In this document: in pieces, positions 30,271 to 53,879 of the stretch
Layout of the letters: every line of letters begins with the position of its first letter
Numbering within the stretch: the stretch's first letter is position 1
Source: Nitrospirota bacterium
Lineage (GTDB): Bacteria > Nitrospirota > Thermodesulfovibrionia > Thermodesulfovibrionales > JdFR-85
Assembly: GCA_003232715.1 (NCBI GenBank)
Contig: QIJG01000050.1
Coordinates: 1 to 55,258, forward strand
Length of the DNA stretch: 55,258 nucleotides
Direction: 5' to 3'
Made by a program: the position numbers and the translations under genes
The notes under the pieces: generated by a model
Database searches by the model: none
The model's input: only the letters and a program-made list of their open reading frames with translations
Told to the model about the DNA's origin: nothing

Positions 30271-33200
30271 TCAAAGTGTATTGCTTTGTGTGAAGCTGAA
30301 TGTGGCATTCCATTTCTTCTTCTCGGTTTTTTCACTGCTTTTTTGTGGTGACTTCAGGCTACCTTTATGATCAAGTTTGGCACTTTCTTCGATTATGAAA
30401 TCTTTTACTTCAACCTTTCCTGTAGCACCTTCTTTACTTTTATCAATCTCTTTGAAGCCGACAGGGGCATCCGTCTCCAAAATCAAGTTCACGGTAATGT
30501 TCGTGGGGATACGTGCTGCAACAGCAAGCTTTTTAGACTTGGCATCTTTTGAAAGCTCTTTGTGCAAGGCGGCTGCTTTTGTACCAAGCTGTCTTTGGGC
30601 GCTTTCTTTAGCCGTTTTTTCTTTGTTTGTTGTTTTAGGCATTTTTGAGATCTTTTTCCAATCATTCAAGAAAGCCCTTCCGGCAACGAGCTTCATAATA
30701 TTTTCAAGCGGACTTGTAACACTCCCTGGATAGTGTAACGATACATCTATAGACACTTTGGAGTTTTGATTCTTAGGCATTGTTTCTTTGCCTCCTCTTC
30801 CTATGCTTTTAAGATTCCTGCTGGTGAAGTTTTCCATTGTTTTATATATGCCCCGGTTTAATCCCCGGGCCTGAGGAACAAGATTTTTGAAGTTTTCAGG
30901 ACCTCCAAACCGATTAGCTATAATATGTCCTCCATCATATTTGCTTTTGTCGATGCTGACTCTGTTTTGGCGCATTGCGCTCTCTATATCTCCAAGCTTT
31001 CCCACAATGCCGGTAAGAGCACTGTCCCTCTCTATGTCTTTCGATAGGCCTTCTTCGATTTTCCCCTCAAGCTCTGCTTTAACATGGGATGGTCTTTCAG
31101 CATTGGCAGGCAACCTTACAATGGGAAATTTAAGGTTGGCATCATCAAGCTCGGATGCTACAGCGCCGTGTATCGTGGGATATATATCTCCACTTGCTGA
31201 GTAAGTACCGAGTTTTGTTGTTCCTCCAGAGGTCTTTCTAAACTTGCCGTTTTTTTCCGTTAATGCCAGTTCTTCAGGCTCTGCCTTGAAAGGCTTGCCT
31301 CTGATTACTTCACTCTCGGAATTTTTGATGACGACATCGTCATTCCTGTTCAGCACGATACTTTTTAATTTGAACTGTTTTTTTAGATTTAATAATAATT
31401 TTCTCAGGTCTGGTCTTCTTATCCCCCTCTTCATGGCCTGTCGGACTGCAGCTGCTGCCAATCGTTTGTTCTTCTTCCGTGTTGCGGTATTGCCCCGCTT
31501 ACTTTCCGTTACCTTTTTTCTGAATTTCCTGAACAGTGCCCTGGCCTTCTTCGCGATAAAATCGACGGCCTTGTCAATGACCTTGTCGATGGGCTTTCTT
31601 ATCTTCATGATTATCTTCTTGACTGCTTTGCCGATGCCGTTCAGGTTCAGCAGGCGGGCAAGGAAGTTCAGGATTATCGGTATGGTCATTGCCATGGCCC
31701 TTTCAACTGCAGCGGATGCCGCGCTGATCTTGCCCATGGCTATGTCCGCTATGGAGTTGAAGACGGTCTTGACGAACTGGACGATCTTGTTCCAGTTATC
31801 CACGAAGAACATGATGGTGTTGTAGATATCCAGGATTGCCTGCACGATCGCACCGGCAGGGTTCAGGAAACTGAGGAGCTTGATAACTCCCTGTTTTACC
31901 AGCTCTACGATGGCCCAGTTGCGGATGCCATCCATCACCTGTTGCTTGATCTCCGCGGCCTTTGCCTTTATCATCTCCCACAGTGCCATCGGTCCCTGAG
32001 TGACTATCTTCTTGATGATATCAAAGGTTTTTTCTGCTGCACCTACGACCTTCTCGCCGAGACGCTTCACCAGCTTGCGCCTGATATTGGCCCAGGTCAG
32101 TCCGAGGATCTGGAGCACTATGGAGATAATGCCTTTGAGGTTGAACTTCGGCGGGAGCTGGATGCCGATTTTACCCATGGCCCCTGTCAGCCAGCTGATG
32201 AGACCCCCCACAAGGTGCTTTCTAATGTTGTTTACGAAGCTGTTAATGCCTCCCTTTACGGCGTTTATGATGTTTATTATGAATCCTGCAGGGTTACCGA
32301 CTATTTTTTTGATTACGGCCTTGCCCTTGTTGATTATAGACATCAGGCGGTCGGCACTGTACCCGGCCTTTTTGAGCGCCCATTTGAAGAATTTCAAGGC
32401 AGCCTCGATGAGGAGATTGCCGAGCTTTGAGAGTGCACCTGACATCTCTTCCTTCATCTTCTCTATCTTTTCGTCGATCTTCTTGATCGCCTCTTCTTTC
32501 TTGTCGCAGAGCTTTCTTGCCAGTTCATCCTTCTTTCTGTCTATGAACTTGTCCATATCGTCCAGCCTGGACTTCATCTCCTCCATGGACTGCTGCCCGA
32601 TCTTCTTCAGGTCGGGTCCGAGGCTGTCAACATACTTCTTTATGTCCTTGCGCGCGGTAGCAATCTCTTCCCTGCAACCGGCGATTGCCTTTTCGTTCTC
32701 CTTGGTGATACGGGCAATCAGCTGGTCGATCTTTGTGACGTAATTCTTGCGGGCCCTCTCAAAGGCTGCTTTCACTTCCGGGAAATCATCGATCCCGAAG
32801 AGCTTGTCCTTTGCCCACCTGACCGAACCGAATAGCCCCGAGTACCGCTTGCGCTTCCACCTGTTTATGTCACGGTTGACTTCATATTCAAACTCACTGG
32901 ATGCCGTTGTCTGTCCCTGGTCAAAGGCTTTCAGGGATTGCTTCTCTAAATTGTTAAGCTTTACCGTTACGCTCTTCTTTGCACGTTCGTAAATCGAATT
33001 TATCTGTTTTGTTACCGCTTCCCTCCTGAGTTCCAGGGAGGACCTGGTTTTTTTCTGCTTATCCTTTGCACCGGCAAGTCCCTGGAGGCGTTTATTCCGC
33101 ATTTGACCTCTTGATTTTATTTCATCTTCCCGGAGGTCTTTATCGACGTTCATTGCCTGTTGCCGGGCAAAGTCTTGCAGTTTTTCAGGTTTGGTGTTGA

Positions 33201-34338: not shown

Positions 34339-35718
34339 TCAGGAAGTCCTTCCCTCTTTCCGGAGTTCCTTTCGTATCCCTTCAAGTATATCATTCAATG
34401 ATATGACCCTGCTTTTTTTCTTTAATGTCATCAGGGTGGCGTATCTGACGACGTTCATGATTGCTCCCCCTGACAGTTCATATTCAGCGGCGATTTCCTG
34501 CAGATCCCCCCTCTCTTTGAGGGGGGTCTTGTTGGAAAAGGCGTTTTCCCATAACCGGAAGCGCTCGTTCTGCTTCGGCATCGGAAAGTGGATAATCGAC
34601 TGGAATCTCCGTGTGAAGGCCTCGTCAAGGTTTGACCTCTGGTTGGATGCCAGGATGACAACACCGGCATAATCCTCAACACGCTGCAAGAGGTAGGAGA
34701 CTTCCTGGTTTGCAAAGCGGTCATGAGCGTCGTTTATGTTCGTCCGCTTGCCGAAGAGTGCATCGGCCTCGTCAAAAAAGAGTATCCATTCCTTATGCTC
34801 TGCCTTACGGAAGATATTTTCGAGATTTTTCTCTGTCTCCCCGATATACTTGGATACCACCATGGAGAGGTCTATGCGATATACATCCCGGTCTGTTACC
34901 TTTCCAAGCAAAGAGGAGGTCAAGGTCTTTCCTGTCCCGGGAGGCCCGTAAAAGAGGCTCCTGTAGCCCGGCTTGAGTTTCTTCATCAGCCCCAGGTCAT
35001 TGAGCAGGACATTCCCGTATTCTATCCAGGTCTTTATCTCGAGGACCTGTTCCATGGTATAGGGGTCCAGTACCAGGTCATCCCAGTCCAGTCCGGCCTC
35101 TATCTTTTTTGCCGGAAAATCGAGGCCAAAGATGGGGTTACGGATATTTCCCGTTGTTACAAGGTCTATGATCTCCCTTGAGAGGGAAAGGAAGCTGTTC
35201 ATTTCAGGTTCGTTCTCACCGGGGCGTTCCAGCTTGAGTATGTTGTGCTGAGCAAAGAAATGATCGGCCTCGAAAAGATAATGGAACGAGAGGCGTTTCT
35301 GCAGGTCATCCCCTGCCAGCAGGAAGAGGGCGGTCTCCCCGGTGGGAAGGAAGCCCGAAAAGGAATGGCCGTTTCGTCCCCCAAATTCGGTAAAATGTCT
35401 TGAATTAGTGCCGTTTCTGCTCAGAAAGACGTCCAGGAGCTGAGGCTTTATATGGGGAACGAGACTTAGCACGAAAACGGCCCTCTCGGCGAATGTCATG
35501 TCATAGTGATTGATGAAGTTGGCGTACATGGATTCCTCTTTCCCGAACTCAGGTGGATTGATATCAAATATATCGGTATAGTCACATTCCTGCCCGAAGT
35601 GGAGCTTTAGCCTTGTGTCTATGAGTGCGAAAAACCAATCCAGCTCAATATTTAGTGTAACTGCATTTTTATATGAGAGATCGCTTACCATGTAACGTTT
35701 ATTACTGTTTTCATCCAT
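34339..35718 (-). CDS. CIS-associated AAA+ ATPase (Afp15/Pvc15-like)
   Basis: Walker A GPPGTGKT, Walker B ILFFDEADALFGKR, SRH-like ILASNQRSNLDEAFTRRF. A single AAA module with an N-terminal domain, in the syntenic position after the tape measure gene. Confidence 0.85.
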   Translation of the reverse strand: MDENSNKRYMVSDLSYKNAVTLNIELDWFFALIDTRLKLHFGQECDYTDIFDINPPEFGKEESMYANFINHYDMTFAERAVFVLSLVPHIKPQLLDVFLSRNGTNSRHFTEFGGRNGHSFSGFLPTGETALFLLAGDDLQKRLSFHYLFEADHFFAQHNILKLERPGENEPEMNSFLSLSREIIDLVTTGNIRNPIFGLDFPAKKIEAGLDWDDLVLDPYTMEQVLEIKTWIEYGNVLLNDLGLMKKLKPGYRSLFYGPPGTGKTLTSSLLGKVTDRDVYRIDLSMVVSKYIGETEKNLENIFRKAEHKEWILFFDEADALFGKRTNINDAHDRFANQEVSYLLQRVEDYAGVVILASNQRSNLDEAFTRRFQSIIHFPMPKQNERFRLWENAFSNKTPLKERGDLQEIAAEYELSGGAIMNVVRYATLMTLKKKSRVISLNDILEGIRKELRKEGRTS

Positions 35719-37352
35719 GAAAGCCTGATTATCGAGATGCTCCAGGGCAGATATTCCAGGAGCACGTCGTAGGGTTTCTGTTCCACTTTCAGCACCCAGC
35801 CCGTTTCCCTTTTACCCAGGATTCCCTCTCTTTGCAGGAATGAATGCCTGAAACCTGCGATGGAGGTGTTCTTTAAACCCTGCCAGTGAGATATTACGGA
35901 AGAAAGGAGCTTTTCTGCTTCCGACCTCTCCGCGTCAGTTATCCTGAGGCCCCGGCTTACGGGTTCGAAAGTATCCCAGCCGCACAGGAGCTTGTTCAGC
36001 AGGAGGAGGTATTCCGGTCTCTCTTCTTTGTCGGTAGCGAGATACTCAAGAAGGTGTATCGCTCTCATGGCAGATGCTTCGTCAACAAAAGCACTCTCTC
36101 TCATCAAGCCCGTATTTTCGAAAAAACTGCCGAGATAGGGCCATAAAAGGACAAGCCCGGCATTCTTGATGGAGGATTCAAGTTCCATATCCTCTTCCGG
36201 CAAATTGCGGCGTCCCGTGGATGGACTCGTTGATGGTACATCCGGGATGGCAATCGGCCCTTTCAACGCACCAAGGGTCTGTTTCCCCGGCTCCTGCGTT
36301 CTATTGTTCTGCCCTTCCAAAGCTGCTGATGACTCTTCTTCGAGGATTGACCGGGCCTTCGTTTTGCCAGTGGCAGGCCCTATCGTTCCTCCCTTGTACG
36401 AGGACGCTTTACCCGTACCGCTTGTGTCGTCTGCGAGCGAGAGGTTATCCTCGAGAATCGCCACCAGACCTGCGAGGGTGCTACGGAGTCCGGTACGGGA
36501 CCACTCCTTGAATGATGTCACGATCGCCTTGGCAATAACGTTATAGTGGGTTTCAATTTCCAGGGACAGAGCCCTGACGAGGCAATCGATGTCCGGGGCC
36601 TGCCTCCTGCCTGCCGCCACCTGTTCAAGGAGAGAGTCCCAGAGGATGAACCTGAACCAGCTCTGGCTCAAGGGGGTAAAGGGGTGTTTTCCGTGGAGCT
36701 CGATGAGATCATCCGCCAGGTGATTGATTCGGCCTGGATTCTTTGCTCCGAGTGCCTCCAGGACTTTCAGGATCAGCCTGCCGGAAAACTGATGGATTAT
36801 CCGCTGCCTGGCGTGCTTCTTTTCCAGTTCATGCCTGAGAATCTCAACCCTCTCGTAGTCCTCCAGGAGTGCCGCTAACTTCTCCTCTATGCTTGTCTGC
36901 GACTCGATGCTGGCCCACCACGGGACTATTCCCGTTCTTAGATAGTGAACCAGGAGTTCCAGGTCAGAGGTCTTCTCGGAAATAGTCCGGCCCTCCGTCC
37001 ATCTGCCGCCCTGATCCGGCGCTCCCTGTATGGAGCCCTGTTGACCAGGGAGTGAAAGAGACCCTTGCCTCTCGCTGCAGATCCTGGCCATCTCGTCATA
37101 TAACACTCTAAGCACCTTCGCAGAAAAGTCCTGCTCCAGCCTTTCCTGCGATATGGTCCCGATGTCGATCTCGAGTTTCTCGATCCTCAGGATGTTCTCC
37201 CCGGAAAAGCCCGTGAAGATTTTGCCCATTTCAGGCAAGAGGACCGTATGGTAGAGGTTGCCTATCCTGTCCTGGACTCCCCGAGCCTCTTCCTCGTCTT
37301 TTACTCTGAGTTCTATTGTCTGCTTTCTGATCTTATGGTTTTGAAGATCCAT
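35685..37352 (-). CDS. CIS tape measure-like protein (Afp14 position)
   Basis: The N-terminus HKIRKQTIELRVKDEEEARGVQDRIGNLYHTVLLPEMGKIF...ILRIEKLEIDIGTIS matches my recollection of the conserved N-terminus of eCIS tape-measure proteins. Its position immediately before the AAA+ ATPase gene also fits. Confidence 0.55.
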   Translation of the reverse strand: MDLQNHKIRKQTIELRVKDEEEARGVQDRIGNLYHTVLLPEMGKIFTGFSGENILRIEKLEIDIGTISQERLEQDFSAKVLRVLYDEMARICSERQGSLSLPGQQGSIQGAPDQGGRWTEGRTISEKTSDLELLVHYLRTGIVPWWASIESQTSIEEKLAALLEDYERVEILRHELEKKHARQRIIHQFSGRLILKVLEALGAKNPGRINHLADDLIELHGKHPFTPLSQSWFRFILWDSLLEQVAAGRRQAPDIDCLVRALSLEIETHYNVIAKAIVTSFKEWSRTGLRSTLAGLVAILEDNLSLADDTSGTGKASSYKGGTIGPATGKTKARSILEEESSAALEGQNNRTQEPGKQTLGALKGPIAIPDVPSTSPSTGRRNLPEEDMELESSIKNAGLVLLWPYLGSFFENTGLMRESAFVDEASAMRAIHLLEYLATDKEERPEYLLLLNKLLCGWDTFEPVSRGLRITDAERSEAEKLLSSVISHWQGLKNTSIAGFRHSFLQREGILGKRETGWVLKVEQKPYDVLLEYLPWSISIIRLSWMKTVINVTW

Positions 37353-37381: not shown

Positions 37382-40126
37382 TCAGGGGTTCAGGCTGAAT
37401 CCCTTCAGTGCCGTTGCTAATACGGTCTTCCCTGTAACCGATGTTTTTATTGTGCTTATATTGTTTGAAAGGGATGCCCTGATGTCATTATTCTTTATAA
37501 ATGAAGTGCTGTTGCGCGCTTTCTCAATCAATTTCTCCTCCTGGGAACCACTGGCTATGTCTCCTTCTTTTTTACTCACATTTATGATCGTGTTTTTGAC
37601 TGTCTCAGCTATCATCTTGTCCAGTTCGTGCCGCATCCTCTTTTCTTCCTCTGTGGCCGTGCCCGAAGCGATCTTTACCTCATAGGCCCTGGCAGTTTTT
37701 GTCAAGCCGTCAAGGGCATCAGCTTCAGCCTTCAATCCGGGGTCGGTGTATGTAGATACGACTCCGGGATTGACCTTTGCCTGCATCAGGTTGCCGATGA
37801 TTGTGTTCAGGCTGCCTGAGTATGCCTGTGTTATCGACTTGGCCTGAGTGTCTATTATGAACTTCAGGTCTTCGTATTTTTGACCGATTTTCTCGTCTAT
37901 CGACTTGATCTTTTCCTCAAGGTAGCCCTCTTTACTCGGGTGCACCAGGATCTCGTTCAGGTCCGTCCATTTTTTTCTTCCATCGGAGTCTTCTGCCATG
38001 GCCTCCTCTTCTTCCACTGTGGGCTTACAGCACTGGTATGGCATGGAGAAATCCGCAATCACCTTATTGGCAGCGGATGAGTATACAAGGACAAAAGTGC
38101 CTCCCCCTTCAGCCCCTCCGGTATGCTCCATACCTGGATTTTCCTCGAGGAACCTGGCAAACAATGAGAGTTCCTTTGATTTCTTCTCTCTTTTCTTCAG
38201 TATACCGTCTATCCATTCAAACCACTTGAACTTTGTGTTGTTCACAAGGGTTTCATAAGGTGTGTAGGCTGAATTATATGTGACGCCCTTTATGTTCTTA
38301 TTTATGATTGAAGCTGTCTCGACCGCCGAAGTATATGTCTTTATAAATCCGGGTTGATCGAATTCGTCAAGGTTTTTGTTCAGTTTTCCCTTGATTTCCT
38401 GAAGCTGTTCTTTCAGGATGCCGGCGCTGTCACTCGTCACTGCCTTGATGGAAGCCGTTGTGTTTGTTACAGACTTTGGAGGCAACTCCCCGGATCCCTG
38501 GATTATCTCGACCACCTTGGTGTTGAAGTCTTCAACGTTCCTGATATTCTCCCTCAGGTCCTTCTTCAGAAGGAAATGCAGGGTCTTCAGGCTACCGTAT
38601 TCATAAAAAGGCTTAAGGGGGAGAATGGACAGGTCTTTTTCGATCTGGAGGGTCGTGACCTTGATCGGGAGATTGTAGCTGGTGATTATTCCCTTAAGCT
38701 CTTTTTCCGCTTCAGCGGGTTTTCTGCCGAGGTGTCCTTCTATCCTGAAGAACCTATAGTCGTCAAGGGGATAGTTCAAGGGGTTGAGCGCTCTGGCGGA
38801 TCCGTTATAAACGTCGGCATTAAAGGAGTAGAGATGGTTGTTTTTGTCCCTTCTGTTCAGCTCGTAGTTCCAGTGCCGGTGCAAGGGATTATTTTTGAGG
38901 ATCTTGTAGTAGTAGGGTATGGCCCTTGAGCCCAAACGGGCTTCCGGCTTGCTGGGAGTGACCTTGATGTCCTTGCCCGATGCCGGGACGTTGAAGCTCC
39001 TGATCATGGAGTCCATGCGTTTATGCAGGAACCGGGCCTTTTCCCATAGAGGGGATTTCCTGTTAAGGAGAGGGGACTTGTAGAATTGGTGACGGAAAGG
39101 ATCAGACGGCAGACGTTGATCCACGGCGGTGAGGCTGCCGAGTATCACATGTTTTGGGAAAAGCTTCACGTCAGGACAACAGACTGCATTATCTTCGAAG
39201 AGGGTATCCTTGAACTCCTTATAAGCCGATGCTATGTCCTTTATGAAGTCATAGACGTACTGTATCCCGTGGTCGTCTTCCTCGATCCTTTCATCGAGTT
39301 GCGTGAAGGTCTTTTCCCAGGCTTCGGATGGATCGTTGCTGTAAACATTTTTCAACAGTGGTTCACAGGCCTGATAGCTGCCGGTGATTATTTTTGCTGT
39401 GTTGTTGATGAATTTCTTGATAACATTTCTGTAGCCGGAGGCCAGGTCACTGTAGGTACTGATATCCCGCGGGGATATCAGTACCCTTTCACAGTCGATC
39501 TCTTTGAGCCTGGAGTAAAACCGGTTTGCGGTCTGGGCCTGATCTATGAGGGACTTGAGGTCGGACCTGAAGACGAGGAGCACCCGCAGGTTGTTTCTCT
39601 GCTCCTTGCCCTTGTTGTCACAGTCGCTTCCTGTGCATATGCCGGGATCGTGGACGTAGCTCTCAAGATAGAGCAGCAAGGCCATTGCATCCATTTTCTT
39701 TCCCGTCTCATCTTCAAAGGCGTTCAATTTTTTTGCTCCCTGGTCTGCATCGGGCAGTAATTCGAAGAGGGGGATCTGTTTCTGGTTCTGGATAAAATAT
39801 GGATACGAGGCGATCCTGTCTTTAAAGGCCTTGAAGTATTTGAATGCCCTGTCCTTGTCGAATGTGAGCAGATCTCCGTCAGTGGTGATAGCGCTCCCCT
39901 TTGTAATGGTGATGGACTTTGCAGCACTGATACCCTTCATCGGATACTTGACCTCAAGGCCGCACACAATACCTGCACCCGTCAGTTTCACCCTTGAAAG
40001 CCGGTACTCCCTGTCAAGGTATTCGGTAATGTTGTTAAGCTGCCCGGATGTCAGCACCTGGTCTTCTTCAAAGACCGGGTAAGAAGTCACCGTAGGTTCC
40101 GAGAGCTTATAGGATTTGTTTGCCAT
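37382..40126 (-). CDS. Hypothetical 914-aa CIS protein in the tail-fibre (Afp13) position
   Basis: Lies between the gp7/Afp12-like and tape-measure genes with gaps of 5 and 29 nt. The N-terminus ...VFEEDQVLTSGQLNNITEYLDREYRLSRVKLTGAGIVCGLEV recalls a conserved CIS baseplate-associated family. No fibre-type repeats are visible. Confidence 0.45.
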   Translation of the reverse strand: MANKSYKLSEPTVTSYPVFEEDQVLTSGQLNNITEYLDREYRLSRVKLTGAGIVCGLEVKYPMKGISAAKSITITKGSAITTDGDLLTFDKDRAFKYFKAFKDRIASYPYFIQNQKQIPLFELLPDADQGAKKLNAFEDETGKKMDAMALLLYLESYVHDPGICTGSDCDNKGKEQRNNLRVLLVFRSDLKSLIDQAQTANRFYSRLKEIDCERVLISPRDISTYSDLASGYRNVIKKFINNTAKIITGSYQACEPLLKNVYSNDPSEAWEKTFTQLDERIEEDDHGIQYVYDFIKDIASAYKEFKDTLFEDNAVCCPDVKLFPKHVILGSLTAVDQRLPSDPFRHQFYKSPLLNRKSPLWEKARFLHKRMDSMIRSFNVPASGKDIKVTPSKPEARLGSRAIPYYYKILKNNPLHRHWNYELNRRDKNNHLYSFNADVYNGSARALNPLNYPLDDYRFFRIEGHLGRKPAEAEKELKGIITSYNLPIKVTTLQIEKDLSILPLKPFYEYGSLKTLHFLLKKDLRENIRNVEDFNTKVVEIIQGSGELPPKSVTNTTASIKAVTSDSAGILKEQLQEIKGKLNKNLDEFDQPGFIKTYTSAVETASIINKNIKGVTYNSAYTPYETLVNNTKFKWFEWIDGILKKREKKSKELSLFARFLEENPGMEHTGGAEGGGTFVLVYSSAANKVIADFSMPYQCCKPTVEEEEAMAEDSDGRKKWTDLNEILVHPSKEGYLEEKIKSIDEKIGQKYEDLKFIIDTQAKSITQAYSGSLNTIIGNLMQAKVNPGVVSTYTDPGLKAEADALDGLTKTARAYEVKIASGTATEEEKRMRHELDKMIAETVKNTIINVSKKEGDIASGSQEEKLIEKARNSTSFIKNNDIRASLSNNISTIKTSVTGKTVLATALKGFSLNP

Positions 40127-45803: not shown

Positions 45804-45805
45804 GG

Positions 45806-46668: not shown

Positions 46669-48417
46669 TCAATTTATCTGTACTATAGCGCCTTTTACGA
46701 CAGCAGTGGCGCTTGTGCTCAGCTCAGCTCCGGAAGCCCCTTCGGCCTTTAACAGCGCCGAGGCCTTGACGGTACTGTTAGTCCCTTCAATGTCAATGTT
46801 TCCTCCAGCCTTTATGGCGATGTCGCCGTTGCTCACGACAGTGATGCCTTCGGGACCCATCTCAATCTTGTTGCTGTTCTCGTCTTCTATGACAACAGAC
46901 CCCGCGTTGTCGTCCATGGTGAGGGTCTTTCCCGCCGGGGTCTCGATTCTTATGCTCTCTTTTTCGTCATTGAATATCAGCTTTATGCCGCTTCGGGAGA
47001 CGAAACCCTTTTCGTTGTTTTCATCACTTGCGGTCAGGGGAGCCGGCTTGGCACTGCTGTTGAACATGCCGAGGATCACGGGATTCCTCGGGTCGTCGTT
47101 CAGGAACCCGAGCACCACCTCGTCTCCGATCTCGGGCCTGAAGAAAGAGCCCCTGTTGTCACCGGCGTCAAGGGTGGCAACGCGTGACCATAGGCCGTCG
47201 TCGTTGCTGTCGACCAGGGGGAGCTTTACCAGCACCCTGTCTTCACCGTCAGGGTCGTCCTGAAGCTGTGTTACGATACCCATCTGGAGCCCGTTTACAG
47301 CGGGTAAGAGGCCCGAGGCAGGCAGGGAGTTGACCCTGTTTCTTTCAATAAACCACTCCTGTGAAAGGCCGAGTTGTGCCTCTGTAGTCCATGAGCCGTC
47401 TCCTATCTCGTGACGAATGCCTGAAACAAAGGCCTTGCCGTTGAAGCGTTCTCCCAGACCTGCCAGGCCCAGAAAACTCCCGGGCTTGATGGCGGCATGG
47501 CCTGTAAACTTCACCCTTCCCTGTATCTTGGACATCCTGGAACGCAACAGGGCGGCACTGGTCCAGGCCTGCAATTCCTCCTCGGAGATCTGGCCTGCCT
47601 GCTGGAGTTTTCTCGAGTCGGCTCCGATCGCCTCTGCCAGTGTCCGGGAGTCCACGTTTCCCTGTTCGGTTACATCAGGCTCTTCTCCTTCTGTTGAGAT
47701 CACATCCTGGTTCGCCATGTCCCATGTGCGTCCCTCCACTTCCCGGACCTGGCTTCCGGCGTCCATTTCGGCATCAAGCTCTAAAATTGTTGCGCCGTAC
47801 AGTAGAGAGATGTCCGCCTCTTCAGAGAAGTCAGGCCTTTTTATTTCGACCTTTTTATCGTCCGCGTAGACCAGCATGCCGTTGACCTCAGCACGGCTCG
47901 TGATGAAATCCCAGTCAGTACAGTAGTACTGGACGAGTTCCTTGTGGTTGACGCCCGTTGTCTCGATCTCGCCGTCAATCTCGTAGTTGCCGACGATGGT
48001 GTCGAAGACATCACTGTCGGTGACATCATGGTAGCATGTATTCTTCGGTCCCAGGGACATCTTCACAGCCTTATGTTTGCACTCGATTGTCAACGTCGAT
48101 GCTTTGCCTTGCCGGATCCTGATCCCGTGCCTGACGATTATGCCGGAGAAAATCAGGGACTCATTGGAGTGATACCCGGCCATGATTTCGACCTTTCTGC
48201 CAGGGACAAACAAGTCGGTATTACTTGCCTTGAAGTCTTCGCCGGCAGGGTCCCCATCAAGGAGTATTATTCTGGCCCGGGTTATCTTGTTCACCATCTT
48301 CGTGACCACAATGGATATGATGTGGTACTGGCGCGGCAGCTCCTCGTCCTCGACCATTATGGTGAAGGTCGGTTTGTCAGTCGGGGCCGGAGTTGGAACG
48401 GCTCTTTCGTTAACCAT
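46669..48417 (-). CDS. VgrG / gpD-gp5-like spike protein (Afp8-like)
   Basis: gp27/gpD-like N-terminal region. OB-fold motif SFFRPEIGDEVVLGFLNDDPRNPVILGMFNS and a C-terminal beta-helix-like repeat (ITVVSNGDIAIKAGGNIDIEG). Confidence 0.85.
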   Translation of the reverse strand: MVNERAVPTPAPTDKPTFTIMVEDEELPRQYHIISIVVTKMVNKITRARIILLDGDPAGEDFKASNTDLFVPGRKVEIMAGYHSNESLIFSGIIVRHGIRIRQGKASTLTIECKHKAVKMSLGPKNTCYHDVTDSDVFDTIVGNYEIDGEIETTGVNHKELVQYYCTDWDFITSRAEVNGMLVYADDKKVEIKRPDFSEEADISLLYGATILELDAEMDAGSQVREVEGRTWDMANQDVISTEGEEPDVTEQGNVDSRTLAEAIGADSRKLQQAGQISEEELQAWTSAALLRSRMSKIQGRVKFTGHAAIKPGSFLGLAGLGERFNGKAFVSGIRHEIGDGSWTTEAQLGLSQEWFIERNRVNSLPASGLLPAVNGLQMGIVTQLQDDPDGEDRVLVKLPLVDSNDDGLWSRVATLDAGDNRGSFFRPEIGDEVVLGFLNDDPRNPVILGMFNSSAKPAPLTASDENNEKGFVSRSGIKLIFNDEKESIRIETPAGKTLTMDDNAGSVVIEDENSNKIEMGPEGITVVSNGDIAIKAGGNIDIEGTNSTVKASALLKAEGASGAELSTSATAVVKGAIVQIN

Positions 48418-49096: not shown

Positions 49097-49258
49097 CTAC
49101 CGTTCTTCCTTTTCCTTCAATATCTGCATTACCTGTTCAACACATTCCGACACTATATCCGCCGTGTCGGCTCCTTTTGAGCCGGGTTCTGCATTTTCAT
49201 CCTTACTTCCACTGTCAATGACGGCCCTGATTATGATCTCGTTTACCTGGACGGGCAT
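49097..49258 (-). CDS. Small conserved CIS protein (Afp6 position; DUF5908-like MPxxxxExxI(K/R)A N-terminus)
   Basis: MPVQVNEIIIRAVIDSGSKDENAEPG...VMQILKEKEER, 53 aa. The ATG at 49258 lies 2 nt after the tube gene stop. The upstream 40 codons of the 93-aa ORF overlap the tube gene and were discarded. Confidence 0.55.
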   Translation of the reverse strand: MPVQVNEIIIRAVIDSGSKDENAEPGSKGADTADIVSECVEQVMQILKEKEER

Positions 49259-49260
49259 GG

Positions 49261-49710
49261 TCAAGTCCTCTTGAAGTAGTTGTACGCAAGTTCTATGGTC
49301 TCCACCACGATGCTGCCTTCCTGCGCCTTGAAGTCGGATACCACCCACTTGACCGGCCAGGCCTTTACAAAGCTCCACCCCACAAGTGGCTCATGCTCTT
49401 CGTTCAAAAGGGTCACGAGCACGTCAGCGGGCTTGAACTCGAAGTTCTCGACGGCATCTCTGAACCACTCGATCAGCTTTGAGTTCTTCAACATACCCCG
49501 CTTGAGGACAAGGTTCCCATATTTTGACCTGGTGGGAAGGCGGTGTGAAAACCGGTTCTCAGCGCCTTCGTTGAGTTCTTCGATCCCGATCTCTGCCGTG
49601 AGGCCCGAGACCTCCTGGAACCTGGTATCCCCTTCGAGGATGCCGTCGAGGTTGAACTCCACCTTGAAGTGAAACCCTACGGGCGGGTAGTTAGTGCCCA
49701 CCTTGCTCAC
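49261..49710 (-). CDS. CIS inner tube protein, T4 gp19-like (second copy; Afp5-like)
   Basis: PPVGFHFKVEF...FQEVSGL...LKRG...WF... is the phage tail tube signature. 4-nt overlap with the upstream tube gene. Confidence 0.85.
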   Translation of the reverse strand: MSKVGTNYPPVGFHFKVEFNLDGILEGDTRFQEVSGLTAEIGIEELNEGAENRFSHRLPTRSKYGNLVLKRGMLKNSKLIEWFRDAVENFEFKPADVLVTLLNEEHEPLVGWSFVKAWPVKWVVSDFKAQEGSIVVETIELAYNYFKRT

Positions 49711-50147
49711 TCGTTCTCGATCGTCAGCCCTTCATGAGCTACTTCTATGGACTCGATGGCCACCTCGTTGCCGGTTGCCTTCAGGCCAGGGCCTTCTATC
49801 TTCACAGGAAAGGCATTGACGGCCTTCCATGTCATGACGGGCTCGTGTTTCTCGTTGAGCAGGCTTATCGTGAGGGTTCTCCTTTCCACCTTGTTGAGCG
49901 AGGTGGTGTTGAGCCATTTGAAGAAGTCGTTGTCCTTAGGTATGATGCCTTTTTTCATGGTTATGTTGCCGTGCTTGGGTATGCCGGGCATCTTGATGGC
50001 CCCGTATTCCTTGCTTGCGCCGTCGCGGTACTCGATGACCTGTGTCTCGATGTTCAGTCCCGAGACCTCGGCAAAGCCGATTTCCGTTCCCCTGGAGCCG
50101 CCCCAGTCCACCTGGAAATGAAACGCTGGTAAAGGGTATTCAGCCAT
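49707..50147 (-). CDS. CIS inner tube protein, T4 gp19-like (Afp1-like)
   Basis: MAEYPLPAFHFQVDWGGSRGTEIGFAEVSGLNIETQVIEYRDG...NITMKKGI...FFKWL. Confidence 0.9.
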   Translation of the reverse strand: MAEYPLPAFHFQVDWGGSRGTEIGFAEVSGLNIETQVIEYRDGASKEYGAIKMPGIPKHGNITMKKGIIPKDNDFFKWLNTTSLNKVERRTLTISLLNEKHEPVMTWKAVNAFPVKIEGPGLKATGNEVAIESIEVAHEGLTIENE

Positions 50148-50227: not shown

Positions 50228-52174
50228 TCATCCTTCCTGCAACTTGTGGGAGAACTTGAGGATGATGAATTCAGCAGGTCTCACCACTGCCATGCCGATC
50301 TTCACGTTCATTCTTCCTTCAAGGATGTCCTGAGAGGTCATGGTGGTTCCAATCCCGACCTTGACATAGAAGGCATGGTCAGGCTTGGCCCCGGCAAGCG
50401 CCCCGTCTCTCCACTTCTGTGTCAGGTAGTTTTCTATCATGGATTTCACCTTGATCCACGTGTTGGCGTCATTAGGTTCGAATACGGCCCAGTAGGTCGA
50501 CTTCTTCACGGATTCCTCCACCATGTTGAAGAAGCGTCTTACAGGGATGTAGCGCCATTCATTGTCGTTGCCTGCCAGGGTGCGGGCGCCCCAGACGAGT
50601 ATGCCCTTGCCTGTGAAGGCACGGATGGCGTTTATTGATTTTCCGGCCGTGGTGTCTACATTCAGGTCCTTCTGCTCCTCGCTGTCGATAGTCTCGGTCA
50701 GGCCCGTTACCCCACTGAGACTCACGTTTGCCGGGGCCTTCCAGACGCCCCTGCTGCCATCCACCATTGCGTAGATTCCTGCTATGGCACCGCTTGGAGG
50801 AAGCTCTGAGAGGGAGTTACCCAGCTTCGTTACGAGGTTCTTGTAGACGACGTGGGAGTTGTAGAGGCTGTCTCCATAAGTCCCTTCGTAGTTGCCGGCT
50901 GAATCAACGATCTGAGTGAAGGCCGCGTTGACCTGGTCGAATATCAGGGAGATCTTCGGTTCAGCGTTTTTCAACTTCTCGGCATCGGTGCCACCTGTGT
51001 ATATCGAGCCGTCGGCGTCAGGGGGGCTGCTGAAGAGGTCGCCCCACTCGTCCGCCTCGATCGTGTAGTCGGAATTGGAATAGAGGTTGAAGGAACCGTC
51101 CCATTCCGATTCTGCTCCCCTGTCGTATGCTATAAGTGTCGAGAGGGAGTCTTTCAGGGAGTTGGTTATCAGGTCCTTTATGTTTGTCAATAGATCGTCA
51201 CCCTTGACGGGATCGTCCTTTGCCATTTTATCCACTTTGTCTGCAATCTCGTAGATCAAATCAAAGAGCCCCTTGAAATTGCCTGTGTCCGGGGAGCCCT
51301 TGAACTGGTCCAGCAGGACGGTGTATCCGGCCTTAAGAGTGCTTTCAGCACCCTTGAGAGCGTTTAAGTCGGTTTCAATCGTGTCTACATCGGCAATGGC
51401 GTTGTCCAGTTTCGTGATGATTTCCTTGACTTCGTCGTCATCGGTCAGGACATCGAGACTGATTACCTTTCCTCCCCTTGTGATCTTTCCCTTGATGTCC
51501 CTGTAGCGGATCTTTAACCCCAGGTTCGACTTCAGCCACGGGGTGTAGGCAGCCCCGTACTTCAGGTGGTTGATCCCGATCCTGTTCCTGAACTCCTCGA
51601 CCCCGTCTTTCCATCTGAAGGTTGCATCCGTGTCTTTGGATTCGAGAAGGTCAAGCACGGCAAAGCGGTCCATCAGTTTGGCGCACTGGGCGATGGCCTG
51701 CTGCTGAAGGTCATACAGGTCGTCTCCAAGCCTGACCGCATCAGGAAAGAGTATGATCGTCGGTTCGTCCTTTCTCTTCAGCTCTTCGAGGCCCTTTTCA
51801 AATTCGGACTTGGAAGGTGTATCACTATAGGAACCTATGGATATGATGTAGCACTTTCCTCCTCCATTCTTGAAAAACAGCCTCAGGCTGTCATACATGT
51901 AAAAATTCGAGCTGACATTGTGTGAACTCAGTACGTTGTTTTCATCGATTACGACCTTGTTTACATTAACGGGCGGAGCCCCCCCGAACAGTGTCTCGTA
52001 CTCCAACAGTGATGTTATTTTTGTCGGTACATGCCTCAGATCGTCAGGTCCTAACTCTTCGGCCCTTTCCGTATAGCCTATAAAAGCGGGAACAGCCGTC
52101 TCCACCTCAGCCACGGAGGGCGGAAAGAGGGAGATTTCCTCTACGTAAACATCCGGTGTTTTGTAAGTAGCCAT
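50228..52174 (-). CDS. Contractile sheath protein (648 aa, with large internal insertion)
   Basis: N-terminus MATYKTPDVYVEEISLFPPSVAEVETAVPAFIGYTE. C-terminal sheath domain INAIRAFTGKGILVWGARTL...RYIPVRRFFNMVEESV. Strong SD GAAGGAGG. Confidence 0.9.
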   Translation of the reverse strand: MATYKTPDVYVEEISLFPPSVAEVETAVPAFIGYTERAEELGPDDLRHVPTKITSLLEYETLFGGAPPVNVNKVVIDENNVLSSHNVSSNFYMYDSLRLFFKNGGGKCYIISIGSYSDTPSKSEFEKGLEELKRKDEPTIILFPDAVRLGDDLYDLQQQAIAQCAKLMDRFAVLDLLESKDTDATFRWKDGVEEFRNRIGINHLKYGAAYTPWLKSNLGLKIRYRDIKGKITRGGKVISLDVLTDDDEVKEIITKLDNAIADVDTIETDLNALKGAESTLKAGYTVLLDQFKGSPDTGNFKGLFDLIYEIADKVDKMAKDDPVKGDDLLTNIKDLITNSLKDSLSTLIAYDRGAESEWDGSFNLYSNSDYTIEADEWGDLFSSPPDADGSIYTGGTDAEKLKNAEPKISLIFDQVNAAFTQIVDSAGNYEGTYGDSLYNSHVVYKNLVTKLGNSLSELPPSGAIAGIYAMVDGSRGVWKAPANVSLSGVTGLTETIDSEEQKDLNVDTTAGKSINAIRAFTGKGILVWGARTLAGNDNEWRYIPVRRFFNMVEESVKKSTYWAVFEPNDANTWIKVKSMIENYLTQKWRDGALAGAKPDHAFYVKVGIGTTMTSQDILEGRMNVKIGMAVVRPAEFIILKFSHKLQEG

Positions 52175-52202
52175 AGTTCCTCCTTCATTCTACTTTTAAG
52201 GT

Positions 52203-53297: not shown

Positions 53298-53300
53298 GGA

Positions 53301-53879
53301 TCAGCTCCTCCTGTCCGAGAGATTCATAATCCTGACAGGGGGCTGTTCGTCCGTTATAAGTGTCTCCTGGATTGTCAGCATCCGAATCTTGTACATGACC
53401 GAAGGGAGGTACTTTGCCCCCAGTGCTCCCCATATATGGTTCTGTTGTTCAAAACTTAGAGTGAAGAGCTCGGCGATCAGTTTTTCAATAGACTGATCAA
53501 GACCCGGTGTGTTCTGGGGGTTGAATACGTTTTTGCCCTGGAAAAAGCGTATCGCCCCTGACAAGAATCCGAGGCCAGTACTGTATTTGTTGAAATTGGC
53601 GGTAATCAGGACGTAAAGGTTGAGCTTTATGGCCGGGTTCAGGTGTGAGACCTGTCCTTCTGATGTGAGGGTGGTGGCTTGCCGGGATTTCACCATCCTT
53701 TCTTCCTCAACGTTGACTAAAGTCAGCCCCAGGGAGTTGTCAGGGACGGCGATGTCACCGTTGAACTTGACTATCGGCGTTATATGGACTACGGTCTCAC
53801 TCGTTACGTTCAGCTCGGGCAGTCGAACAAGGTAGTCGTGGATCTCTTTCTTTAAGACCTCTAAAGCCTTGTCAATCAT
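53301..53879 (-). CDS. DUF4255/Pvc16_N-like tube-sheath terminator (cap) protein
   Basis: 192 aa and the first gene of the operon. LGLTLVNVEEERMVKSRQ... and ...LNLYVLITANF patterns match my recollection of DUF4255. The cap-first order is typical of one eCIS lineage. Confidence 0.7.
   Translation of the reverse strand: MIDKALEVLKKEIHDYLVRLPELNVTSETVVHITPIVKFNGDIAVPDNSLGLTLVNVEEERMVKSRQATTLTSEGQVSHLNPAIKLNLYVLITANFNKYSTGLGFLSGAIRFFQGKNVFNPQNTPGLDQSIEKLIAELFTLSFEQQNHIWGALGAKYLPSVMYKIRMLTIQETLITDEQPPVRIMNLSDRRS

What the first reader, a model, noticed from the sequence alone, without database searches (positions are those of the whole stretch)
30271..53879. Complete Afp/PVC-type contractile injection system operon with cap-first gene order and several unassignable components
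There are 17 co-directional, tightly packed minus-strand genes. In order they are:
- DUF4255-like cap
- unknown 364 aa
- one large sheath protein (648 aa, with an internal insertion)
- two gp19-like tube proteins
- a 53-aa DUF5908-like protein
- LysM tube initiator
- VgrG-like spike
- PAAR
- gp25-like
- baseplate J-like (1016 aa)
- gp7/Afp12-like (849 aa)
- unknown 914 aa
- tape-measure-like protein
- AAA+ ATPase
- a 1351-aa putative cargo

An Afp15-like AAA+ ATPase, a tape measure and a DUF4255 cap, with no TssB/C pair, TssJLM or ClpV and no capsid, portal or terminase genes, argue for an eCIS-superfamily particle rather than a T6SS or a prophage tail. No recognisable Afp13-type fibre and no in-operon lysis genes are present. 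At least three proteins (364 aa, 914 aa, most of the 1351 aa) carry no motif I can name. The locus sits next to flagellar/chemotaxis and anaerobic (glycyl-radical) genes. That suggests an uncultivated anaerobic host, where such systems are poorly characterised.
Basis: partly seen in the sequence, partly recalled or inferred. Interest (0 to 1): 0.85.

Follow-up and report, generated by a model that had tools for sequence, protein, structure and literature searches.

The report
AlgoCIS-like contractile injection system, Nitrospirota
This is a complete phage-tail-like protein-injection machine in an uncultivated Nitrospirota bacterium, but it is an ordinary member of a well-studied group: every part, including the three called "unknown", matches a solved part of the AlgoCIS and Anabaena systems.

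Summary
Window 30271-53879 (minus strand) carries a tightly packed contractile injection system (CIS) operon, and all core calls pass profile searches. It has 16 genes, not 17.

This is not an Afp/PVC-type (clade Ia) cluster. For every large component, the best matches among solved structures are AlgoCIS (Algoriphagus) and the Anabaena thylakoid CIS, both clade Ib.

The "unassignable" proteins can be assigned:
- 364 aa: cap adaptor Cis16B/Alg16B.
- 914 aa: Cis19/Alg19 TssK-like tail fibre or crown.
- 53 aa: Alg6 plug.
- 1351 aa: an "eCIS-core" type cargo. It keeps the N-terminal leader, has lost the DUF4157 domain and ends in a His-Me nuclease.

The cap-first gene order is the norm for this group.

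The contig comes from a Nitrospirota metagenome-assembled genome. The most likely mode of action is an AlgoCIS-like extracellular particle of roughly 125 nm that delivers a nuclease. A cell-associated mode cannot be excluded from sequence.

One side observation: a 42-bp element with two AYAGGTCAA repeats 21 bp apart brackets the cluster, next to a REC-AraC regulator.

Verdict: new member of a known kind, low to moderate interest.

The parts
54222..55028 (-). REC-like + AraC-type HTH regulator. Co-directional and immediately upstream. Candidate regulator of the operon (inferred).
   Evidence: Pfam HTH_18 3.1e-22, HTH_AraC 2.9e-16, Response_reg 7.5e-07 (29.7 bits, just under the 30.2 cutoff). 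No close homologue was found next to other CIS clusters.
53978..54019 (-). 42-bp element with two direct AYAGGTCAA repeats 21 bp apart, 106-135 bp upstream of the cap ATG. Candidate AraC-type operator, or an island-boundary repeat.
   Evidence: Only 4 AYAGGTCAA sites occur in the 55 kb (0.7 expected; 0 of 100 shuffles reach 4).
53301..53879 (-). Cap / tail terminator (Cis16A/Alg16A type: short, single domain, 192 aa).
   Evidence: Pfam Pvc16_N 3.6e-36. Its length matches the 197-aa Alg16A described in PMC8894135.
52203..53297 (-). Cap adaptor (Cis16B/Alg16B), 364 aa.
   Evidence: phmmer All3326 4.1e-12. A family profile from 30 loci against PDB gives All3326 2.7e-39 (full length), AlgoCIS cap adaptor 1.8e-26 and SalCis16b 4.5e-21. 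An ORF of about 280-460 aa (about 185 aa in two loci) fills this slot in 68 of the 71 related loci examined.
50228..52174 (-). Single contractile sheath protein with an extra domain, 648 aa (Alg2-like).
   Evidence: Pfam Phage_sheath_1C / Phage_sheath_1. PDB: Alg2 4.1e-135, tCIS All3325 1.3e-127. Full-length relatives occur in at least 584 stretches of GTDB genomes.
49707..50147 (-). Inner tube protein (Alg1/Afp1 equivalent; assigned by position and exclusion).
   Evidence: Pfam Phage_T4_gp19 3.7e-46.
49261..49710 (-). Tube-initiator layer protein (Alg5/Afp5 equivalent), GTG start.
   Evidence: Pfam gp19 2.7e-44. PDB best hit is AlgoCIS chain 7aeb_Y (Alg5) at 2e-53, against Alg1 at 3.2e-21.
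49097..49258 (-). Plug (Alg6/Afp6, DUF5908), 53 aa.
   Evidence: Pfam DUF5908 9.5e-18. Role taken from PMC8894135.
48410..49096 (-). Tube initiator with C-terminal LysM (Alg7/Afp7).
   Evidence: Pfam CIS_tube 3.5e-49. Full-length alignment to AlgoCIS 'LysM domain-containing protein' 4.1e-60.
46669..48417 (-). VgrG-like spike (Alg8).
   Evidence: TIGR01646 5.3e-71. Pfam Phage_base_V 3.5e-20.
46297..46575 (-). PAAR spike tip (Alg10).
   Evidence: Pfam PAAR_motif 9.8e-19.
45806..46228 (-). gp25-like baseplate wedge protein (Alg9).
   Evidence: Pfam GPW_gp25 2.2e-24.
42753..45803 (-). gp6-like baseplate wedge protein with an N-terminal extension (Alg11; the extension forms the spike 'cage' in AlgoCIS).
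   Evidence: PDB Alg11 2.5e-166. The N-terminal 530 aa alone match Alg11 residues 10-489 at 1.7e-59. Pfam Baseplate_J 3.1e-07.
40132..42681 (-). gp7-like baseplate wedge protein (Alg12/Cis12), with a YegP/DUF1508-like insert and without the tCIS membrane-connector extension.
   Evidence: PDB All3315 1.5e-170 (query 7-715), Alg12 5.4e-158. Pfam DUF1508 2.9e-05.
37382..40126 (-). Cis19/Alg19-type trimeric tail fibre or crown (TssK-like shoulder and neck plus a divergent helical C-terminus).
   Evidence: phmmer Alg19 (9wt0_a) 3.6e-67, All3314 7.1e-48. AF2 model with pLDDT 80.6. Foldseek 7b5h Cis19 chains 1.8e-32 over about 820 columns; TssK 0.017. At least 833 homologue clusters, mostly about 900 aa.
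35685..37352 (-). Tape measure protein (Alg14), 555 aa.
   Evidence: Pfam CIS_TMP 9.2e-114.
34339..35718 (-). AAA+ ATPase (Alg15/Afp15 equivalent). Inferred cargo-loading unfoldase.
   Evidence: Pfam AAA 1.4e-27. Walker A and B intact. Role from bioRxiv 10.64898/2026.05.27.728243.
30271..34326 (-). Cargo/effector, 1351 aa. It has a conserved N-terminal leader (residues 1-108, motif DPLEQETDRTSEKV), a charged low-complexity linker, an all-helical conserved core (about 430-935) and a C-terminal His-Me (Endonuclea_NS_2) nuclease around residues 1118-1200. The DUF4157 domain is deleted.
30120..30161 (-). Second copy of the 42-bp repeat element (86% identical), downstream of the cargo gene and 155-184 bp upstream of the next operon (d191).
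   Evidence: Conserved upstream of the d191 homologue in relative L079.

Best explanation
The 16 genes encode a complete clade-Ib-type contractile injection system, built like AlgoCIS.

Inferred assembly, by homology to the solved AlgoCIS and tCIS structures:
- A VgrG trimer tipped by PAAR and plugged by the 53-aa Alg6 homologue nucleates the particle.
- Two tube-initiator rings follow: the Alg7-like LysM protein and the Alg5-like protein.
- Six gp25/Alg11/Alg12 wedges form the baseplate. The N-terminal extension of the Alg11 homologue forms a cage around the spike.
- Trimers of the 914-aa Cis19/Alg19 protein dock on the Alg12 homologue as downward-pointing fibres.
- The 555-aa tape measure sets the tube and sheath length. 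Using the 0.229 nm per residue reported for AlgoCIS gives about 127 nm.
- A single 648-aa sheath protein polymerises around the gp19 tube.
- The short cap and the 364-aa cap adaptor terminate the particle.
- The AAA+ ATPase threads the 1351-aa cargo, unfolded, into the tube lumen through its disordered N-terminal leader.

Most likely mode of action (inferred, not shown): particles accumulate in the cytoplasm and are released when the producer lyses. They bind a target cell through the fibres, contract, and expel a non-specific His-Me nuclease that kills the target, probably another bacterium.
For: Shown here:
- All core families pass curated thresholds.
- Every large component has AlgoCIS or Anabaena tCIS as its best solved relative: sheath 4.1e-135, Alg11 2.5e-166, Alg12/Cis12 1.5e-170, Alg7 4.1e-60, Alg5 2e-53, Alg19 3.6e-67.
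- Clade-Ib-specific accessories are present. Cap adaptor. Plug. Cage extension. Cis19 fold.
- Gene order is colinear with 78 related loci and with all3326-all3314.
- The ATPase motifs are intact.
- Cargo: the leader is 56% identical and the core 79% identical to a DUF4157 + nuclease protein encoded directly after the ATPase in a syntenic relative. It carries a nuclease domain at 6.1e-13.
- For an extracellular rather than anchored mode: no predicted TM segment in any structural protein, no Cis13 gene between the Alg11 and Alg12 homologues (a 71-nt gap), and a Cis12 homologue only 849 aa long, lacking the 610-1100 connector of tCIS (PMC8894136).

From the literature:
- Roles of cap adaptor, plug, cage and cargo: PMC8894135.
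- Alg19 fibre binding to bacteria and the firing mechanism: PMC13314943.
- Alg15-dependent loading, a dispensable DUF4157 and the tape-measure ruler: bioRxiv 10.64898/2026.05.27.728243.
Against: - No particle has been seen. Expression, assembly, release and target are all inferred.
- Clade Ib also holds membrane-anchored (T6SSiv, tCIS) and array-forming (MAC) systems, and sequence does not predict the mode reliably.
- No lysis cassette lies in the operon.
- No immunity gene follows the nuclease cargo (a 298-bp gap, then an unrelated operon). This is unexpected for a toxin made in the producer's cytoplasm.
- Clade placement rests on best-hit ranking, not on a phylogeny.
- The helical core of the cargo has no structural match, so its role is unknown.
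Confidence: 0.6

Rival explanations
1. Same machine, but cell-associated rather than released. It would be either anchored to the producer's membrane and fired on contact (like T6SSiv of Amoebophilus), or kept in the cytoplasm to mediate the producer's own stress-induced death (like Streptomyces CISSc, or ghost-cell formation by Anabaena tCIS).
For: Clade Ib includes T6SSiv and tCIS (PMC8894135, PMC8894136), and the tCIS proteins are nearly as close as the AlgoCIS ones. No lysis genes lie in the operon. The lack of an immunity gene next to a nuclease would fit a self-killing role. Regulation by a response-regulator-type AraC protein would fit a stress-triggered programme.
Against: The known anchoring determinants were tested and are absent: the Cis13 TM fibre, the Cis12 extension, and any TM helix in the structural proteins. 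The host has no thylakoids. No CisA-like membrane protein is in the operon. The neighbouring membrane proteins d191 and d190 belong to a glycyl-radical-enzyme cluster found without any CIS elsewhere. A PAAR/VgrG spike plus a fibre with a fast-diverging C-terminus (47% identity to the syntenic relative, against 78% for the ATPase) suggests recognition of an external target.
Confidence: 0.3
2. A defective prophage tail or an R-type tailocin that kills by membrane depolarisation, without any protein cargo.
For: Sheath, tube, gp25, Baseplate_J, VgrG and tape measure are all phage-tail homologues.
Against: The cluster has an AAA+ ATPase, DUF5908 plug, Pvc16_N cap, CIS_TMP and CIS_tube families and a leader-bearing nuclease cargo encoded directly after the ATPase. 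Pyocin and T4 sheaths match only at 3.1e-09 to 1.3e-05, against 4.1e-135 for AlgoCIS. No head, portal, terminase, integrase or lysis genes were seen among the scanned ORFs, and the contig has no tRNA.
Confidence: 0.03
3. A canonical type VI secretion system (T6SS i-iii).
For: VgrG (TIGR01646), PAAR and gp25-like (TssE-like) proteins are shared with T6SS. The Cis19 shoulder is TssK-like (E = 0.017).
Against: There is no TssB/TssC pair, TssJLM, TssA or ClpV in the window. The sheath is a single phage-type protein. A tape measure and a cap are present.
Confidence: 0.01

Closest known systems
AlgoCIS of Algoriphagus machipongonensis (clade Ib eCIS; PDB 7ADZ, 7AEB, 9WT0; PMC8894135, PMC13314943)
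   Same: AlgoCIS is the best or near-best solved homologue for the sheath, Alg5, Alg7, Alg11 (including the cage extension), Alg12, Alg19 shoulder/neck and cap adaptor. Both have a single sheath gene, a short cap plus adaptor, a DUF5908 plug, an AAA+ ATPase, and cargo encoded right after the ATPase with a disordered N-terminal leader.
   Different: The fibre is 914 aa with a helical C-terminus, rather than 1443 aa with Ig/PKD-rich domains. There is one cargo gene rather than two. The cargo lacks DUF4157 and carries a His-Me nuclease rather than a putative metalloprotease. The host is an anaerobe-like Nitrospirota MAG, not an aerobic marine Bacteroidota. Protein identities were not computed; the matches are strong over most or all of the length but far from identical.
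Anabaena PCC 7120 thylakoid-anchored CIS (tCIS; PDB 7B5H, 7B5I; PMC8894136)
   Same: The gene order is the same (all3326, 3325, 3324, 3323, 3321, 3317, 3315, 3314 are colinear with the window). Cis16B is the best hit for the 364-aa protein. Cis19 is the best structural match for the 914-aa model. Cis12 is the best sequence hit for the 849-aa protein.
   Different: There is no Cis13 transmembrane fibre gene and no Cis12 connector extension (849 vs 1335 aa). Cis19 is shorter (914 vs 1476 aa). The host has no thylakoids.
Afp (Serratia entomophila) and PVC (Photorhabdus), clade Ia eCIS
   Same: They belong to the same superfamily and share the same core parts list (Afp1, 5, 6, 7, 8, 9, 10, 11, 12, 14, 15, 16). 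Cargo is loaded through an N-terminal signal.
   Different: This cluster has one sheath gene instead of three. Its cap is short and paired with a separate adaptor, instead of a two-domain Afp16. It has a Cis19 fibre instead of an Afp13 adenovirus-like fibre, and the cap-first order instead of tube-first with the cap late. Matches are much weaker (for example Afp11 2.9e-41 against Alg11 2.5e-166).
MACs of Pseudoalteromonas luteoviolacea and T6SSiv of Amoebophilus asiaticus (other clade Ib members)
   Same: The literature places them in the same clade as AlgoCIS. They share plug homologues.
   Different: No sequences were compared here. MACs form arrays and T6SSiv is membrane-bound, and the determinants of those modes are not defined at sequence level.
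DUF4157 ('eCIS core domain') effector family, e.g. AlgoCIS Cgo1/Cgo2
   Same: The position after the ATPase is the same. The leader motif D-x-x-E-x-E-A-D-x-x-A-x-x-V occurs in 33 of 53 homologues. The helical core of about 850 aa is conserved (79% identity to P0003). The C-terminal toxin is variable.
   Different: The DUF4157/HExxH module itself is missing: an in-frame loss of about 200 aa relative to P0003.

Membership tests
eCIS/CIS superfamily (Afp/PVC/AlgoCIS-like) | Core set: sheath, gp19 tube(s), tube initiator, VgrG, PAAR, gp25, gp6-like, gp7-like, tape measure, AAA+ ATPase and DUF4255 cap in one operon. | tested here: met
   Pfam, NCBIfam and PDB hits for all of them.
Clade Ib CIS (AlgoCIS/tCIS/MAC/T6SSiv group) | Separate cap adaptor (Cis16B/Alg16B) next to a short single-domain cap. 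| tested here: met
   Profile vs PDB: All3326 2.7e-39, Alg16B 1.8e-26. The cap is 192 aa.
Clade Ib CIS (AlgoCIS/tCIS/MAC/T6SSiv group) | Alg11 N-terminal extension that forms the spike cage. | tested here: met
   Residues 9-433 align to Alg11 residues 10-489, 1.7e-59. That it actually forms a cage is inferred.
Clade Ib CIS (AlgoCIS/tCIS/MAC/T6SSiv group) | Cis19/Alg19 TssK-like fibre or crown protein after the gp7-like gene. | tested here: met
Clade Ib CIS (AlgoCIS/tCIS/MAC/T6SSiv group) | Placement inside clade Ib in a sheath or Afp11 phylogeny with dbeCIS references. | not tested
   Only a best-hit ranking is available (Alg2 455 bits, tCIS 430, SalCIS 372, Pvc3/Afp3 about 220-226). Reference sequences for a tree could not be retrieved.
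Extracellular mode of action (eCIS sensu stricto) | Particles free in the cytoplasm, released by lysis, and active from outside on target cells. | not testable with these tools
   Needs cryo-ET, sheath preparations and killing assays.
Thylakoid-anchored CIS (tCIS) | Cis13 fibre with a C-terminal transmembrane helix, encoded between Cis11 and Cis12. | tested here: not met
   Only 71 nt separate the two genes. No TM-like segment occurs in any structural protein.
Thylakoid-anchored CIS (tCIS) | Cis12 extension (aa 610-1100) that forms the wide membrane connector. | tested here: not met
   The protein is 849 aa. The match to All3315 covers query residues 7-715 against chain residues 7-745.
Afp/PVC (clade Ia) | Three sheath paralogues (Afp2-4), a two-domain Afp16 cap of about 295 aa, an Afp13 fibre, and tube-first gene order. 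| tested here: not met
   There is one sheath gene, a 192-aa cap and no Afp13-like gene, and the cap gene comes first.
Canonical T6SS | TssB/TssC sheath pair, TssJLM membrane complex and ClpV recycling ATPase. | tested here: not met
   None was found among the window ORFs scanned. The rest of the genome was not available.
DUF4157 eCIS effector family | DUF4157 (PF13699) metallopeptidase-like domain with HExxH. | tested here: not met
   No PF13699 hit even at E <= 5 on the N-terminal 200 aa, and no HExxH. Residues 100-300 of P0003 have no counterpart.
DUF4157 eCIS effector family | Shared N-terminal leader and helical core, encoded after the CIS ATPase. | tested here: met

The most novel reading that the evidence does not exclude
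The injection system may be wired into a larger regulon. The same 42-bp element (two AYAGGTCAA direct repeats 21 bp apart, the classic AraC/XylS layout) sits in front of the CIS operon and in front of the next operon. That operon encodes two paralogous multi-TM proteins, an uncharacterised glycyl-radical enzyme with its activase, and a PG_binding_1/SLT lytic transglycosylase. An adjacent response-regulator-type AraC protein is the candidate binder. If it is real, one signal would switch on both the nuclease-injecting weapon and a peptidoglycan-cleaving, glycyl-radical catabolic module. That would be a 'kill and scavenge' (or 'kill and lyse for release') programme in an anaerobe. A similar AGGTCAA-N14-AGGTCAA pair follows AraC genes upstream of the cap gene in three Bacteroidota loci. 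This hints at a regulator and operator pairing that recurs with these systems.
Probability: 0.15. Interest if true: 0.55.

Novelty: new member of a known kind. Interest (0 to 1): 0.25.

Why it matters
This cluster adds a complete, apparently intact AlgoCIS-like system to Nitrospirota. The searchable CIS literature holds only five papers that mention both Nitrospira-type names and contractile injection, and none appears by title or abstract to describe such a cluster. The cluster also sits in an anaerobic, flagellated host. That modestly widens the known ecological range of clade Ib systems.

The practical value is mostly annotation. The proteins that databases still call "hypothetical" here (cap adaptor, Cis19, plug, cargo core) can be named by transfer from solved structures.

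Two details may interest specialists:
- The cargo has naturally lost DUF4157 but kept the conserved N-terminal leader. This agrees with the experiment showing DUF4157 is dispensable for loading.
- The operon has a candidate AraC-type operator and regulator. Regulation of clade Ib systems is essentially undescribed in the literature searched.

Neither detail changes how these machines are understood.

Tried and rejected
- Exact look-ups of the window's sheath protein and cargo on public contigs found nothing. The source was identified instead through cluster members.
- I considered d191/d190 (29397-29972 and 28767-29339) as CIS accessory, immunity or holin proteins. I rejected this because the family sits in glycyl-radical-enzyme clusters without any CIS in other genomes. 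In the syntenic relative, ChrB and MFS genes separate it from the cargo.
- I tested the tCIS-style anchoring hypothesis and rejected it.
- Pfam LysM on the Alg7 homologue was sub-threshold. The full-length PDB alignment resolved it.
- A metagenome scan with the regulator returned only distant HTH hits (38-40% identity over about 80-88 aa), none next to a CIS. Linkage of the regulator to the CIS could therefore not be tested outside this lineage.
- tblastn and phmmer for AraC genes upstream of cap genes found only 3 of about 70 loci.
- Sigma-70 promoter and terminator scans of both flanks were no better than shuffles.
- Rfam found no RNA family, and there are no tRNAs.
- The AF2 model of the cargo core is all-helical (pLDDT 77) and has no significant PDB fold match (best E = 0.12). 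Its function stays open. A membrane-active or translocation role is only a guess, based on 53% hydrophobic residues and a +32 net charge in residues 640-935.
- The 42-bp repeat could equally be an island-boundary (att-like) duplication bracketing the 23.9-kb cluster. The upstream end of the cluster in the relative L079 could not be fetched to decide.

Full report
**Observation.** The ORF map shows 16 minus-strand genes running without interruption from 53879 to 30271. Four junctions overlap by 4 to 34 nt and no gap exceeds 93 nt, so a seventeenth gene cannot fit.

- Pvc16_N cap
- phage-type sheath
- two gp19 tube proteins
- DUF5908
- CIS_tube
- VgrG
- PAAR
- gp25
- Baseplate_J
- CIS_TMP
- AAA+

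The C-terminus of the 1351-aa protein carries an Endonuclea_NS_2 domain. The flanks are chromosomal. On one side lie a PFL-like glycyl radical enzyme with its activase, an SLT transglycosylase and flagellar export, switch and chemotaxis genes. On the other lies a REC-AraC regulator.

**Source.** The cargo protein is 100% identical to a database protein whose longest contig is 55,258 bp, which is the length of this window. A cluster member is annotated HEC96902.1, "Nitrospirae/Nitrospirota bacterium" MAG. A syntenic relative (GCA_015491675.1, locus L079) carries the same succession: Alg12 homologue, fibre, tape measure, ATPase, cargo and then the glycyl-radical cluster. The cluster therefore sits at a stable chromosomal position in this lineage.

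**What it is.** Searching each large protein against the sequences of solved structures gave the same answer throughout. The best matches are the Algoriphagus AlgoCIS and the Anabaena thylakoid CIS, with Afp and PVC far behind.

| Protein | Best matches |
|---|---|
| Sheath | Alg2 4.1e-135, All3325 1.3e-127; Afp3 6.4e-64 |
| gp6-like | Alg11 2.5e-166; Afp11 2.9e-41 |
| gp7-like | All3315 1.5e-170, Alg12 5.4e-158; Afp12 8.8e-17 |
| Second gp19 protein | Alg5 2e-53 |
| CIS_tube protein | Alg7 4.1e-60, full length including LysM |

Both reference systems are described as clade Ib (PMC8894135). I did not build a phylogeny, so the clade label rests on this ranking.

**The "unassignable" components.**
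- The 364-aa protein hit the N-terminus of All3326 on its own. An ORF of about 280-460 aa (about 185 aa in two loci) fills the slot between cap and sheath in 68 of the 71 related loci examined. A profile built from 30 of them matches three solved cap adaptors: All3326 (Cis16B) over its full length at 2.7e-39, AlgoCIS Alg16B at 1.8e-26 and Salmonella SalCis16b at 4.5e-21.
- The 914-aa protein matches Alg19 (9WT0, residues 5-497) at 3.6e-67 and All3314 (Cis19) at 7.1e-48. An AlphaFold2 model (pLDDT 80.6) superposes on the three Cis19 chains of 7B5H at E = 1.8e-32 over about 820 columns. TssK is a weak fourth hit, as expected from the TssK-like shoulder reported for Alg19 (PMC13314943). The family has at least 833 clusters, most about 900 aa and full-length alignable. 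The short form seen here is therefore the common one, and the 1443-1476-aa AlgoCIS and tCIS proteins are the long variants.
- The 53-aa DUF5908 protein corresponds to the Alg6 plug, which is essential for assembly in AlgoCIS and MACs (PMC8894135).
- The N-terminal 530 aa of the gp6-like protein align to Alg11 residues 10-489 (1.7e-59). That is the part forming the spike cage in AlgoCIS.

**Gene order.** Among the 78 loci kept, nearly all that are not cut short by a contig end share one order: cap, adaptor, sheath, tube, Alg5, plug, Alg7, VgrG, PAAR, gp25, Alg11, Alg12. A few are rearranged, for example L010 and L013. These loci come from Desulfobacterota, Bacteroidota, Cyanobacteria, Proteobacteria, Verrucomicrobiota, Acidobacteriota and others. 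The Anabaena locus tags seen in my PDB hits (all3326, 3325, 3324, 3323, 3321, 3317, 3315, 3314) are colinear too. Cap-first is the rule for this group, not a peculiarity.

**Cargo.** The 1351-aa protein has 52 detectable relatives. Nearly all are 1100-1900 aa and annotated DUF4157 or "eCIS core domain". Compared with the closest architecture-complete relative (P0003, 1513 aa, encoded directly after the ATPase in L079):
- Residues 1-108 align with 1-99 of P0003 (56% identity).
- Residues 80-933 align with 301-1144 (79% identity).
- Residues 100-300 of P0003, which hold the DUF4157 HExxH module, have no counterpart.
- The C-terminal toxin regions differ, apart from a weak match at the nuclease motif.

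A leader motif, D-x-x-E-x-E-A-D-x-x-A-x-x-V, occurs in the N-terminal region (start within the first 175 residues) of 33 of 53 family members. It is retained here as DPLEQETDRTSEKV. This agrees with the AlgoCIS experiments, in which the disordered N-terminal region is required for Alg15-dependent loading and DUF4157 is dispensable (bioRxiv 10.64898/2026.05.27.728243).

The conserved core is predicted to be all-helical (pLDDT 77) and has no significant fold match. Residues 640-935 are 53% hydrophobic with a +32 net charge. Its role is unknown.

No immunity-like gene follows the cargo. The next two genes, d191 and d190, are paralogous multi-TM proteins that travel with the glycyl-radical cluster in genomes lacking any CIS. 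They are not part of the system.

**Mechanism.** By homology with AlgoCIS, I infer the assembly and firing pathway given in the best explanation. The 555-aa tape measure predicts a particle of about 127 nm, using the published 0.229 nm per residue.

The extracellular mode is favoured because the known anchoring determinants were tested and are absent. These are the Cis13 TM fibre, the Cis12 connector extension and any TM segment in the structural proteins. In addition, the fibre is the fastest-diverging structural protein between this genome and its syntenic relative: 47% identity, against 78% for the ATPase and 86% for the neighbouring host enzyme. The divergence is concentrated in the C-terminal 200 aa.

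However, clade Ib also holds anchored systems whose determinants are not defined. No lysis gene lies in the operon, and a nuclease without a cognate immunity gene would also suit a self-directed role. I put the eCIS mode at about 0.6 and cell-associated modes at about 0.3. That the locus is a CIS of this architectural type I consider near certain.

**Side observations.**
- A 42-bp element occurs at 53978-54019, upstream of the cap gene, and at 30120-30161, downstream of the cargo gene and upstream of d191. The two copies are 86% identical. Each carries two AYAGGTCAA direct repeats 21 bp apart, and these are the only four such sites in the contig. The copy before d191 is conserved in L079.
- Three Bacteroidota loci with an AraC gene directly upstream of the cap gene carry repeats of similar sequence (AGGTCAA, AGTGCAA or AGTTCAA) at the same 21-bp spacing.
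- This layout is typical of AraC/XylS operators, so the adjacent REC-AraC protein is a candidate regulator of both operons. The element also brackets the cluster exactly as an island-boundary duplication would, and I could not discriminate between the two readings.
- The neighbouring glycyl radical enzyme matches no characterised equivalog. In three lineages it is linked to peptidoglycan hydrolase genes.
- flhA is split by a frameshift.

**Verdict.** The finding is real and well delimited, but it is a regular member of a structurally solved family that is present in hundreds of genomes. The claims that made it look exciting do not survive testing: unassignable parts, unusual gene order and poor characterisation. 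Novelty: new member of a known kind. Interest: 0.25.

Noticed in passing
window 53978-54019 and 30120-30161 (minus strand); degenerate third copy at 29991-30020: A 42-bp element (86% identical copies) contains two AYAGGTCAA direct repeats 21 bp apart. It is the longest direct repeat in the region and brackets the whole 23.9-kb CIS cluster. One copy is 106-135 bp upstream of the cap ATG. The other is 155-184 bp upstream of the next operon (d191). It is either an AraC-type operator shared by two operons or an island-boundary (att-like) duplication.
   Followed up: partly
L062:8062-8089, L061:~8128-8158, L072:8426-8453 (Bacteroidota loci); L079:16327-16360: In three Bacteroidota relatives that have an AraC-family gene directly upstream of the cap gene, repeats of similar sequence (AGGTCAA, AGTGCAA or AGTTCAA) sit at the same 21-bp spacing at the AraC gene's 3' end. 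The Nitrospirota relative L079 keeps the element upstream of its d191 homologue. The regulators themselves share only 17-20% identity with the window's.
   Followed up: partly
window 23921-29972 (minus strand); L080, L081, L083, L084: There is an uncharacterised glycyl-radical-enzyme cluster here. It has two paralogous multi-TM proteins (191 and 190 aa, no Pfam), a PFL-like GRE (TIGR01774 at 577 bits, below the 678 cutoff, with no equivalog), a 153-aa unknown protein, an activase and a PG_binding_1 + SLT transglycosylase. The same core recurs without any CIS next to GH46 + PG_binding_1, Amidase_3 and Amidase_2 genes. This suggests a link to peptidoglycan breakdown.
   Followed up: partly
window 16125-18141 (minus strand): flhA is split into two ORFs in different frames. 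ORF 17611-18141 covers FHIPEP profile positions 1-147 and ORF 16125-17591 covers 165-656. This is either an assembly frameshift or a pseudogene.
   Followed up: partly
window 30271-34326 (cargo), residues about 100-110: The cargo has lost the DUF4157/HExxH module through an in-frame deletion of about 200 aa, relative to its 79%-identical relative P0003. It keeps the conserved leader motif (D-x-x-E-x-E-A-D-x-x-A-x-x-V), which occurs in 33 of 53 family members.
   Followed up: yes
window 29973-30270: No immunity-like ORF follows the His-Me nuclease cargo. A 298-bp intergenic region leads straight into an unrelated operon. In the relative L079, ChrB_C and MFS genes follow instead.
   Followed up: partly
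L010:4211-6250 and 10001-12031; L013:3713-5743 and 10001-12028: Two Thermodesulfobacteriota/Desulfobulbaceae MAG loci carry a duplicated sheath plus tube pair. The second copy is inserted after VgrG, which is a rearranged variant of the otherwise invariant gene order.
   Followed up: no
window 37382-40126 vs L079:4071-6887: Between the window and its syntenic relative, the Cis19 fibre is only 47% identical. The ATPase is 78%, the cargo core 83% and the flanking host GRE 86% identical. The fibre's divergence is strongest in residues 700-914, while a beta-rich block at about 600-700 stays conserved.
   Followed up: partly
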